Below are positions 1,665 to 1,891 of a stretch of 7,711 nt of DNA, piece after piece (position 1 is the stretch's first letter; every line of letters starts with the position of its first letter). The stretch lies in assembly GCF_003334255.1 (NCBI RefSeq), contig NZ_QOWU01000094.1; one strand, 5' to 3'. The DNA comes from Escherichia coli (GTDB lineage Bacteria; Pseudomonadota; Gammaproteobacteria; Enterobacterales; Enterobacteriaceae). Both the position numbers and the translations under genes were made by a program. The notes below the pieces were generated by a model. It worked only from the letters and a program-made list of their open reading frames with translations. It searched no databases and was not told where the DNA came from.

Positions 1665-1684
1665 AAAAAAGCTCCCGAAGGAGC
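1665..1684 (-). terminator. Rho-independent terminator, probably ending the cspI transcript
   Basis: Plus strand AAAAAA-GCTCC-CGAA-GGAGC. On the minus strand the hairpin is followed by TTTTTT. It lies about 200 nt downstream of the cspI stop. Confidence 0.6.
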
Positions 1685-1891
1685 CTTCATTTTCACTTTT
1701 TTAAATCCAACGACAGACGGCTGGCATTTAAGTATTGTGAAATATTATCAAATGTAATCATCATTGATTTACAAAAGATACATTTTGCCCCGAAAGGATT
1801 CATGTCAGAAACATCAAAAGATGATGTTCTATACTGGGAACCATGACAACACGGGCATCTAAAGTGAATATGGTTTGTAATATTGTCTACC

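What the first reader, a model, noticed from the sequence alone, without database searches (positions are those of the whole stretch)
1665..1891. Long 3' region after cspI ending at a strong terminator, containing a 36-codon ORF
The cspI stop (1892) is about 200 nt from its terminator (1665..1684). This interval contains a minus-strand ORF at 1693..1803 (MNPFGAKCIFCKSMMITFDNISQYLNASRLSLDLKK) that ends right at the hairpin but has no recognisable SD. Together with the roughly 280-nt cspB 3' region, this suggests the csp mRNAs carry long 3' UTRs that could be processed into 3'-UTR-derived small RNAs, or that host additional small genes.
Basis: inference. Interest (0 to 1): 0.3.

Follow-up and report, generated by a model that had tools for sequence, protein, structure and literature searches.

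The report
Known small gene ynfQ after cspI
The stretch after the cold-shock gene cspI is not an untranslated tail: it is the already catalogued 62-codon gene ynfQ, a small zinc-ribbon protein that starts at a rare ATT codon, followed by its terminator, so the finding is ordinary.

Summary
The window is E. coli K-12 MG1655 1636564-1644274, in the cryptic prophage Qin. The interval is not a 3' UTR. The reference annotation places ynfQ (b4724, 62 aa) at 1693-1881 on the minus strand and ynfR (b4749, 21 aa) at 1625-1690.

The true start is an ATT ten bases after the cspI stop, with a GAGG Shine-Dalgarno overlapping that stop. This explains why the internal ATG has no SD.

Support for ynfQ as the gene:
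- A full-length Pfam YmcF-like match (E 1.8e-32).
- Codon-periodic divergence from the paralog ymcF, which lies after cspG.
- The same layout (csp stop, ~10 nt, ATT, ORF, terminator) in Salmonella, Dickeya and 80 prophage contigs.

Published Term-seq puts an RNA 3' end at window 1663, so the terminator is real. Nothing found here supports a 3'-UTR-derived sRNA in this interval.

The cspB 3' region is unrelated. It holds no ynfQ-like gene, but it does have a very abundant 3' end at 4661-4663 at the foot of a strong hairpin.

Verdict: already known, low interest.

The parts
1892..2104 (-). cspI coding sequence (70 aa). The last sense codon plus stop read CUU UGA.
   Evidence: ORF list. RefSeq annotation. 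Part of the Rfam cspA thermoregulator match at 1865-2250, 112.8 bits.
1890..1893 (-). GAGG Shine-Dalgarno for ynfQ. It overlaps the cspI TGA stop and lies 8 nt before the ATT start.
   Evidence: Junction sequence GCGCTTTGAGGTAGACAATATTACA. A GG at the same place follows the csp stop in ymcF, Salmonella, Klebsiella, Dickeya and all 24 distinct prophage variants. That it functions as an SD is inferred.
1693..1881 (-). ynfQ (b4724): a 62-codon gene with an ATT start, encoding a YmcF-like small zinc-ribbon protein. Sequence: MTNHIHFRCPCCHGSQYRTSSFDVSDMNPFGAKCIFCKSMMITFDNISQYLNASRLSLDLKK.
   Evidence: Annotated in NC_000913.3 and in PGAP records. Pfam PF23641 match 1-62/62, E 1.8e-32. 132 homologs, many covering 100% of the query. 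Against ymcF, pN 0.20 and pS 0.84.
1693..1803 (-). It is not an independent gene.
   Evidence: Same frame and same stop as ynfQ. Met27 is not conserved; homologs have K, R, S, N, T or Q there. The fragment would also lack the first CxxC knuckle, C9/C12.
1663..1688 (-). Intrinsic terminator of the cspI-ynfQ transcript: 9-bp stem with a UUCG loop (1667-1688), U6 (1665-1670), and a mapped RNA 3' end at 1663.
   Evidence: Fold. Term-seq 3' end at 1638226 (-) in PMC7815308. A hairpin plus T-run sits at the same position after every homolog examined, with different stem sequences.
1625..1690 (-). ynfR (b4749): 21 codons, MKAPSGAFLLGVYSMDTHILR. Its ATG lies 2 nt after the ynfQ stop, and the reading frame runs through the terminator hairpin.
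   Evidence: Annotation. VanOrsdel et al. 2018 (PMC6001520) report that YnfR-SPA is barely detectable normally and rises strongly after cold shock. It corresponds in position to the N-terminus of YmcE in the cspG locus, APSGAFLLG against LPRGAFFIS.
1391..1620 (-). ynfN. MG1655 annotates 1391-1546. PGAP calls 1391-1620 a frameshifted gene. It lies downstream of the terminator and is co-regulated with cspI and ynfQ.
   Evidence: Annotation. Fold changes for cspI, ynfQ and ynfN run in parallel in PMC11228462, and for cspI and ynfN in PMC7406224.

Best explanation
The interval 1665-1891 is the second cistron of a two-gene cold-shock transcript, cspI-ynfQ, plus its terminator.

Shown:
- ynfQ (1693-1881, minus strand) encodes a 62-residue member of the YmcF-like family. 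Four conserved cysteines form two CxxC knuckles (C9/C12 and C34/C37), giving a small zinc ribbon.
- The reading frame starts at an ATT codon 10 nt after the cspI stop codon. A GAGG overlaps that stop.
- An intrinsic terminator immediately after the ynfQ stop ends the RNA at window 1663.

Inferred:
- ynfQ has no promoter of its own. It is transcribed from the cspI promoter behind the cspA-type cold-sensing 5' UTR, so it is cold-induced together with cspI.
- Ribosomes start at the AUU either by using the stop-overlapping SD or by re-initiating after finishing cspI. The weak start codon keeps YnfQ far below CspI in amount.
- Some polymerases read through the terminator. This would explain the cold-induced YnfR, whose codons run through the hairpin, and the co-regulation of ynfN.

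The biochemical role of YnfQ is unknown. My best guess is a zinc-ribbon adaptor that binds a nucleic acid or a partner protein in the cold-shock response. That is inference only.
For: Annotation:
- NC_000913.3 lists ynfQ b4724 at 1638256-1638444 (-), which is window 1693-1881, and ynfR b4749 at 1638188-1638253.
- PGAP records name the gene 'cold shock small protein YmcF' or 'cold-shock protein'.

Family:
- Pfam YmcF-like PF23641, E 1.8e-32, residues 1-62 of 62.
- 132 homologs across Enterobacterales.
- Among the invariant columns are F7, C9, P10, C12, G14, Q16, R18, N28, P29, G31, A32, K33, C37 and K38.

Coding signature against the paralog ymcF:
- Differences by codon position are 17/9/36 overall.

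Conserved layout:
- cspG-ymcF has the same 10-nt gap and ATT start.
- Salmonella and Dickeya have ATT. Klebsiella has ATG.
- Each is followed by a hairpin plus T-run.
- Of 24 distinct variants in 80 prophage contigs, 23 start with ATT and one with ATC. Every variant whose downstream sequence is present is followed by a hairpin.

Regulation:
- The Rfam cspA thermoregulator matches 1865-2250 but lacks the model's terminal terminator hairpin. This is consistent with the terminator having moved to after ynfQ.
- A Term-seq 3' end lies at window 1663.
- cspI, ynfQ and ynfN are induced 6.5-, 5.9- and 5.8-fold by AZT, with SspA dependence of 38, 42 and 51 (PMC11228462).
- cspI and ynfN have near-identical profiles in PMC7406224.
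- YnfR-SPA is cold-induced (PMC6001520).

Structure: AlphaFold gives mean pLDDT 73, and 82-88 in the core.
Against: - I could not retrieve the primary paper that showed YnfQ protein and its cold induction. That point rests on database names and on a table label, 'Qin prophage, cold shock induced', in PMC11228462.
- No ribosome-profiling or mass-spectrometry evidence for the AUU start was found in the texts I could search.
- The Term-seq 3' end at 1663 appears in only one of the three condition blocks of the supplement.
- Translational coupling, the role of the AUU codon and terminator read-through are all inferences.
- Fold searches gave only generic, non-significant zinc-ribbon matches (E of 1 or more). 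No solved relative exists. The protein's function therefore stays open.
Confidence: 0.9

Rival explanations
1. The interval is, or also acts as, a non-coding 3' UTR that is processed into a stable 3'-derived small RNA ending at the terminator.
For: - A hairpin plus U6 at the 3' end is the usual Hfq-binding module (established knowledge).
- A Term-seq 3' end exists at 1663.
- The 246-nt segment 1655-1900 folds somewhat better than shuffles, z = -2.26.
Against: - The interval is coding: it has codon-periodic divergence and a full-length Pfam match.
- No Rfam family matches it, apart from the tail of the cspA model.
- No conserved unpaired seed stands out. Conservation tracks the protein core, residues 5-45.
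- No paper found reports an sRNA here.
- Only about 30 nt are truly untranslated by ynfQ.
Confidence: 0.05
2. The 36-codon ORF from the ATG at 1803 is translated on its own as an internal-start isoform of 36 residues.
For: An in-frame ATG exists at 1803. Internal starts are known in other E. coli genes (established knowledge).
Against: - There is no SD before it.
- Met27 is not conserved. YmcF has R there, and other homologs have K, S, N, T or Q.
- The product would lack C9/C12, half of the zinc site.
- The upstream 26 codons are under stronger constraint than the 36-codon part, pN 0.135 against 0.243.
Confidence: 0.03
3. YnfQ is made as a CspI-YnfQ fusion by +1 ribosomal frameshifting at the cspI stop (CUU UGA G), as in prfB, rather than by independent initiation.
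For: - The last cspI codon plus stop is CUU UGA, the prfB shift motif (motif recalled from memory).
- ynfQ lies in the +1 frame, and that frame is open from the UUU overlapping the stop through to the ATT: UUU GAG GUA GAC AAU AUU.
- Salmonella has CUU UAA G in the same arrangement.
Against: - There is no SD-like element 3 nt upstream of CUU; the sequence there is GUGGCG.
- The motif is absent from ymcF (CUC UAA) and from the Citrobacter-type prophage copies (GUA UAA).
- Dickeya has an 11-nt gap, which puts the gene in the other frame. Klebsiella has an ordinary ATG start.
- The feature conserved across the family is the GG plus ATT, not a slippery site.
Confidence: 0.03

Closest known systems
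ymcF, the chromosomal paralog downstream of cspG (cspG-ymcF-ymcE-gnsA)
   Same: - Same length, 62 codons.
- 65-66% protein identity.
- Same 10-nt gap after the csp stop.
- Same ATT start, and the same GG overlapping or abutting the stop.
- A hairpin plus T-run right after the stop, and the next reading frame runs through that hairpin.
- A gnsA/gnsB gene lies further downstream.
   Different: - ynfQ sits in the Qin prophage and is present in about 2135 of 5426 complete E. coli genomes. ymcF is in nearly all of them, 5414.
- Downstream, ymcE (76 aa) is intact in the cspG locus. In Qin only a 21-codon ynfR plus a separate or frameshifted ynfN remain.
infC (IF3), the classic E. coli gene with an AUU start codon
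   Same: It uses AUU as its initiation codon. Recalled from memory and not tested here: IF3 discriminates against AUU, so such genes are translated weakly and respond to IF3 level.
   Different: The proteins are unrelated. For ynfQ the AUU is 10 nt behind another gene's stop, so re-initiation may matter. No experiment on IF3 dependence of ynfQ was found.
3'-UTR-derived sRNAs such as CpxQ, SroC and DapZ
   Same: The region lies downstream of a protein gene and ends at an intrinsic terminator with a U-tract.
   Different: Those RNAs come from untranslated sequence and carry a conserved seed. Here the sequence is a conserved protein-coding gene, and no stable fragment or chaperone binding is documented.
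YnfU / ECs_2282 family, another small zinc-knuckle protein of Qin (window 4242-4412)
   Same: Both are small proteins of about 60 aa with two CxxC pairs, encoded in the same prophage next to csp genes. YnfQ touches the ECs_2282_CxxC NCBIfam model weakly, E 0.0024 and 17.8 bits.
   Different: The score is below the curated cut-off of 37 bits. BLASTP finds no alignment. YnfU has an ATG start and its own orientation and terminator.

Membership tests
YmcF-like small proteins (Pfam PF23641) | Full-length match to the family profile | tested here: met
   E 1.8e-32, residues 1-62 against model positions 1-62 of 62.
YmcF-like small proteins (Pfam PF23641) | Two CxxC knuckles (four Cys) and the conserved core FRCPCCHGSQYRTS...NPxGAKCIFCK | tested here: met
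   C9, C12 and C37 are invariant, and C34 is conserved in at least 90% of 34 diverse homologs. The window's sequence has all four.
YmcF-like small proteins (Pfam PF23641) | Encoded about 10 nt downstream of a CspA-family gene on the same strand | tested here: met
   The gap is 10 nt after cspI, cspG and a Salmonella CSD gene, and 11 nt in Dickeya. In all 24 distinct prophage variants the gene is preceded by a stop codon and a 10-nt gap of the same kind; the upstream gene itself was not checked there. In Klebsiella the called CSD gene is 435 nt away, but the 40 nt upstream still look like the end of a csp gene.
YmcF-like small proteins (Pfam PF23641) | Non-AUG (ATT) start codon | tested here: met
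   ATT in ynfQ, ymcF, Salmonella, Dickeya and 23 of 24 prophage variants. One variant has ATC, and Klebsiella has ATG. No ATG, GTG or TTG is available in frame upstream.
YmcF-like small proteins (Pfam PF23641) | Protein made and induced by cold shock | not testable with these tools
   Only indirect support: the RefSeq name 'cold shock small protein YmcF', the label 'cold shock induced' in PMC11228462, and co-regulation with cspI. The primary paper was not retrievable.
3'-UTR-derived small RNA | Derived from untranslated sequence between the stop codon and the terminator | tested here: not met
   189 of the roughly 229 nt between the cspI stop and the mapped RNA 3' end are the ynfQ coding sequence.
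3'-UTR-derived small RNA | Conserved single-stranded seed; conservation not codon-periodic | tested here: not met
   Differences against ymcF are 17/9/36 by codon position. The other two frames are full of stops.
3'-UTR-derived small RNA | Stable processed or separately transcribed 3' fragment; Hfq or ProQ binding | not testable with these tools
   Term-seq gives only the 3' end at 1663. No 5'-end or CLIP data for this locus were found.
Intrinsic (Rho-independent) terminator | G+C-rich hairpin followed directly by a U-tract | tested here: met
   9-bp stem, UUCG loop, U6; -12.5 kcal/mol. The simple scan flagged only the + strand reading of the same palindrome, probably because the extended minus-strand stem uses up part of the T-run.
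Intrinsic (Rho-independent) terminator | RNA 3' end mapped in or just after the U-tract | tested here: met
   Term-seq 3' end at 1638226 (-), which is window 1663 and falls 2 nt past the U6 (PMC7815308 Suppl. files 1 and 3).
prfB-type +1 programmed frameshift site | CUU UGA slippery-stop with the downstream ORF in the +1 frame | tested here: met
   GCG CUU UGA GGU. The ynfQ frame reads UUU GAG GUA GAC AAU AUU.
prfB-type +1 programmed frameshift site | SD-like stimulator 3 nt upstream, and conservation of the site among homologs | tested here: not met
   Upstream is GUGGCG. ymcF has CUC UAA, the Citrobacter type has GUA UAA, Dickeya uses another frame, and Klebsiella has an ATG start.

The most novel reading that the evidence does not exclude
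In the Qin copy specifically, the cspI stop context CUU UGA G, with ynfQ open in the +1 frame, lets a fraction of ribosomes shift +1. This would make a CspI-YnfQ fusion of about 136 aa, joining an RNA-binding cold-shock domain to a zinc ribbon, alongside free YnfQ made from the AUU.

A milder version is more likely, roughly 0.3. In that version the AUU start and the terminator that lies inside the ynfR/ymcE reading frame form a cold-specific gate. Re-initiation after cspI sets the YnfQ dose, and Csp-type antitermination opens ynfR-ynfN.
Probability: 0.03. Interest if true: 0.55.

Novelty: already known. Interest (0 to 1): 0.08.

Why it matters
As a discovery it matters little, because ynfQ and ynfR are already in the reference E. 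coli K-12 annotation and the family has a Pfam entry.

It is useful as a caution. ORF scans based on ATG/GTG/TTG truncate this gene to 36 codons. The gene is left unannotated in six of the nine phage records that carry it, and it has no PHROG family. A reader who assumes a long 3' UTR would look for an sRNA where there is a protein gene.

The function of the YmcF/YnfQ zinc-ribbon proteins, which sit tightly behind cold-shock genes across Enterobacterales, is still unknown. The meaning of their conserved AUU start is also unknown. These are modest open questions.

Tried and rejected
- **Second ynfQ-like gene after cspB, or similarity between the two csp 3' regions.** tblastn and blastn found nothing. 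The two regions are unrelated.
- **Rfam families in the interval.** The only match is the tail of the cspA thermoregulator model. The weak Trp_leader hit at 4469-4553 is just a terminator.
- **NCBIfam and PHROGs.** There is no family above cut-off for YnfQ and none at all for YnfR.
- **Relationship between YnfQ and YnfU.** Only a sub-threshold HMM hit, and no BLASTP alignment. Not claimed.
- **Function from structure.** The AlphaFold model has a confident core, but Foldseek against PDB gave only generic zinc ribbons such as TFIIE-alpha and ribosomal proteins, at E of 1 or more. A profile search of PDB sequences found nothing meaningful.
- **Primary papers.** Look-ups for the published (mBio) version of Weaver et al. 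2019, a PMC id I guessed for Hemm et al. 2010, Hemm et al. 2008 and Wang et al. 1999 all failed because the papers are not held. The Weaver preprint and the supplement of the 2021 small-ORF ribosome-profiling preprint (10.1101/2021.07.02.450978) do not mention ynfQ. In VanOrsdel 2018 the name 'ynfQ' was used for a different ORF, between ydfJ and ydfK, which is a naming trap.
- **Frameshift fusion.** Considered and judged unlikely because the site is not conserved.

Full report
**Where the window comes from.** A megablast of 1400-2300 matches 2149 of 5426 complete E. coli genomes. The window is identical to K-12, and its coordinates map to NC_000913.3 by adding 1636563. It lies in the cryptic prophage Qin. 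The gene order is ynfO, ydfO, gnsB, ynfN, ynfR, ynfQ, cspI, rzpQ/rzoQ, rrrQ, ydfR, essQ, ynfU, cspB, cspF, ynfS, quuQ (ydfT), ydfU.

**Checking the observation.**
- cspI is at 1892-2104 on the minus strand, with a TGA stop at 1894-1892.
- The ATG ORF at 1693-1803 has exactly the quoted translation.
- A hairpin follows it (GGCUCC UUCG GGAGCU, 9 bp, 1667-1688), then six U at 1665-1670. The 42-nt segment folds at -12.5 kcal/mol.
- The bases before the ATG at 1803 contain no Shine-Dalgarno.
- The hairpin is a working terminator. The Term-seq tables of Adams et al. 2021 (PMC7815308) list a 3' end at 1638226 (-), with the sequence ...GAAGGCTCCTTCGGGAGCTTTTTTGC. This is window 1663.
- That end occurs once in Supplementary file 1, in the third of three condition blocks. 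By the file's caption this is presumably M63 glucose; that assignment is my inference.

**What the interval really is.** The reference annotation places two genes here.
- ynfQ (b4724) is at 1638256-1638444 (-), which is window 1693-1881.
- ynfR (b4749) is at 1638188-1638253 (-), which is window 1625-1690.
- The ORF lister did not show the 62-codon frame because it only starts ORFs at ATG, GTG or TTG. The ynfQ start is ATT at 1881-1879, ten bases after the cspI stop, in the sequence GCG CTT TGA GGTAGACAAT ATT ACA.
- The GAGG that overlaps the TGA sits 8 nt before the ATT. This explains why no SD was found before the internal ATG.

**Is the 62-codon frame a real gene?** Four independent lines say yes.
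1. The 62-residue product matches Pfam YmcF-like (PF23641) over its whole length, E 1.8e-32.
2. A search of 5.8 billion proteins returns 132 relatives in Escherichia, Citrobacter, Salmonella, Klebsiella, Raoultella, Kosakonia, Enterobacter, Yokenella, Dickeya and others. Most are 62 residues long and cover 100% of the query. In an alignment of 34 of them the conserved core is residues 5-45. Among the invariant positions are F7, C9, P10, C12, G14, Q16, R18, N28, P29, G31, A32, K33, C37 and K38, with C34 nearly invariant.
3. Against the chromosomal paralog ymcF, nucleotide differences fall 17/9/36 on codon positions 1/2/3. Overall pN is 0.20 against pS 0.84, and in the N-terminal part pN is 0.135 against pS 0.947. 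The two other frames are full of stops.
4. The layout is conserved.
   - In the cspG locus the order is cspG, a 10-nt gap, ATT, ymcF, hairpin plus T-run, ymcE, gnsA.
   - In Salmonella and Dickeya a CSD gene is followed after 10-11 nt by an ATT-started YmcF-like ORF and a terminator. Klebsiella has ATG instead.
   - In 80 prophage contigs from IMG/VR (24 distinct variants, down to 71% protein identity), 23 variants start with ATT and one with ATC. All have a GG right after the csp stop codon. Every variant whose downstream sequence is present is followed by a hairpin, in nearly all cases with a T-run and with a stem sequence that differs between lineages.

**How it most likely works.**
- *Shown:* the coding frame, the ATT at the conserved start position, the stop-overlapping GG(A)GG, and the terminator with its mapped 3' end.
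- *Transcription (inferred).* The consensus scan found one weak promoter-like site on the minus strand in this stretch, with hexamers at 1849-1821, inside ynfQ and downstream of its ATT start, so I assume ynfQ has no promoter of its own.
   - The Rfam cspA thermoregulator model matches 1865-2250 at 112.8 bits, but the model's terminal terminator hairpin is missing from the match.
   - ynfQ is therefore most simply read as the second cistron of the cold-inducible cspI mRNA, about 590 nt from roughly 2250 to 1663.
- *Transcriptome support.*
   - cspI, ynfQ and ynfN are induced 6.5-, 5.9- and 5.8-fold by AZT, with SspA dependence of 38, 42 and 51 (PMC11228462). That paper labels ynfQ 'cold shock induced'.
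   - cspI and ynfQ are down-regulated together by butanol (PMC11728337).
   - cspI and ynfN have near-identical profiles in long-term stationary phase (PMC7406224).
- *Translation (inferred).* Initiation at AUU is either driven by the SD or follows termination at the cspI stop 10 nt upstream. From memory and untested here: AUU is a weak start codon that IF3 discriminates against, as at infC. It would therefore hold YnfQ well below CspI.
- *Read-through.* ynfR begins 2 nt after the ynfQ stop, and its codons run through the terminator hairpin (MKAPSGAF...). YnfR-SPA is barely visible normally and rises strongly after cold shock (VanOrsdel et al. 2018, PMC6001520).
   - Together with the ynfN co-regulation, this implies that some transcripts read through the terminator, at least in the cold.
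   - CspA-family proteins are reported antiterminators (from memory), which would fit, but I did not test this.
- *The protein.* The model has a confident core (pLDDT 82-88; mean 73). The four cysteines at C9/C12 and C34/C37 suggest a small zinc ribbon followed by a C-terminal helix. A 2026 review models YnfQ as rubredoxin-like (PMC13348028). Fold and sequence searches against solved structures give nothing specific. The function remains unknown.

**Rival readings.**
- *A 3'-UTR-derived sRNA.* This is not supported. The interval is coding, no RNA family matches, conservation follows the protein, and no report of an sRNA here was found. A dual role cannot be excluded without 5'-end or CLIP data. 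I give it 0.05.
- *Independent translation of the 36-codon ORF.* This is unlikely. It has no SD, its Met is not conserved, and the product would have half a zinc site. I give it 0.03.
- *A +1 frameshift fusion.* The cspI end reads CUU UGA G, the prfB +1 frameshift motif (recalled from memory), and ynfQ is in the +1 frame, which is open across the junction. However, the upstream stimulator is missing and the motif is not conserved. ymcF has CUC UAA, the Citrobacter type has GUA UAA, Dickeya uses another frame, and Klebsiella has an ATG start. I give it 0.03.

**The cspB part of the finding.**
- The cspB 3' region shares no similarity with the cspI one and holds no YmcF-like ORF.
- The same Term-seq tables list no minus-strand 3' end at the terminator at 4475-4494.
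- They do list a very abundant 3' end at 1641224/1641226 (-), which is window 4661/4663, in all three conditions. Its scores are 0.60, 1.23 and 2.46 million. This is 113-115 nt after the cspB stop.
- The segment 4661-4780 folds into two long hairpins at -43.2 kcal/mol, z = -6.97.
- The second hairpin has 14 bp. It buries a perfect TAAGGAGGT, followed 7 nt later by the ATG of an 11-codon ORF, MKQWLAYLAKS (4629-4664). The 3' end falls in that ATG.
- Natural variants keep pairing in the first hairpin (U-G becomes U-A). One variant deletes the second hairpin.
- This looks like a hairpin-protected mature 3' end of cspB mRNA or a stable 3' fragment. I did not find it discussed in the literature I could search.

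**Novelty and verdict.** ynfQ and ynfR are annotated in the reference genome. The family has a Pfam entry and RefSeq names. The paralogous locus cspG-ymcF-ymcE-gnsA is in use in the literature. The finding is a correct sighting of sequence features, but it mis-delimits a known gene. It is already known and of low interest (0.08). The open residue is the function of YmcF-like proteins and the meaning of their conserved AUU start.

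Noticed in passing
window 4629-4780 (minus strand), cspB 3' region: Published Term-seq (PMC7815308, Suppl. file 1) shows a very abundant RNA 3' end at window 4661/4663 in all three conditions, with scores of 0.6-2.5 million. This is 113-115 nt after the cspB stop. None is listed at the minus-strand terminator at 4475-4494. The 120 nt upstream fold into two long hairpins (-43.2 kcal/mol, z -6.97). The second hairpin buries a perfect SD, TAAGGAGGT, followed by the ATG of an 11-codon ORF, MKQWLAYLAKS (4629-4664). This may be a stable cspB 3' fragment. I found no discussion of it.
   Followed up: partly
window 1882-1897 (minus strand), cspI/ynfQ junction: The cspI last codon plus stop reads CUU UGA G, the prfB-type +1 frameshift motif. 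ynfQ is in the +1 frame, which is open across the junction. The motif lacks the upstream SD stimulator and is not conserved in ymcF, the Citrobacter-type copies, Dickeya or Klebsiella.
   Followed up: partly
window 1625-1690 and 1391-1620 (minus); locus L004 944-1174: ynfR (21 aa) looks like the N-terminal remnant of a ymcE-like gene, APSGAFLLG against LPRGAFFIS. In both loci the terminator hairpin and T-run are themselves translated. PGAP calls K-12 ynfN frameshifted. In effect, cspI-ynfQ-ynfR/ynfN-gnsB is a decayed copy of cspG-ymcF-ymcE-gnsA.
   Followed up: partly
window 2211 and 5071 (minus strand), 5' UTRs of cspI and cspB: Term-seq 3' ends lie inside the cspA-type 5' UTRs, 107 nt upstream of cspI and 80 nt upstream of cspB. 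The cspB one is scored Rho-dependent, and a Rho termination region is also listed inside cspB at window 4974 (PMC7815308, Suppl. files 2 and 3). That paper reports premature termination for cspB and cspG.
   Followed up: no
window 2397-2419 (plus strand), between the cspI promoter region and rzpQ: A plus-strand terminator-like hairpin (GGCTCATGGAAGAGTC plus T-run) coincides with low-level Term-seq 3' ends at window 2418/2419, antisense to the end of rzpQ. No plus-strand gene is annotated upstream of it.
   Followed up: no
window 5783-5843 (minus strand), downstream of quuQ: A strong hairpin plus T-run (AAAACCCGCTGATGAGCGGGTTTT) has a Term-seq 3' end at 5793 in all conditions. Its position just downstream of the Q antiterminator gene fits a lambda-like tR' ending a short, constitutive late-promoter RNA (my reading, not tested). 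A further minus-strand 3' end at 5625 lies antisense to ynfS.
   Followed up: no
phage records H57-H64; PHROGs: ynfQ homologs occur in sequenced lambdoid phages (mEp460, 2H10, Tritos, HannyBb, PhiR42_1 and others). They are unannotated in six of nine records, and the protein has no PHROG family, presumably because of the ATT start.
   Followed up: partly
window 4242-4412 (plus strand), ynfU: YnfQ gives a sub-threshold hit (E 0.0024, 17.8 bits against a cut-off of 37) to the NCBIfam model of the YnfU family, ECs_2282_CxxC. Both are roughly 60-aa double-CxxC proteins encoded beside csp genes in Qin. BLASTP finds no alignment, so the relationship is unproven.
   Followed up: partly
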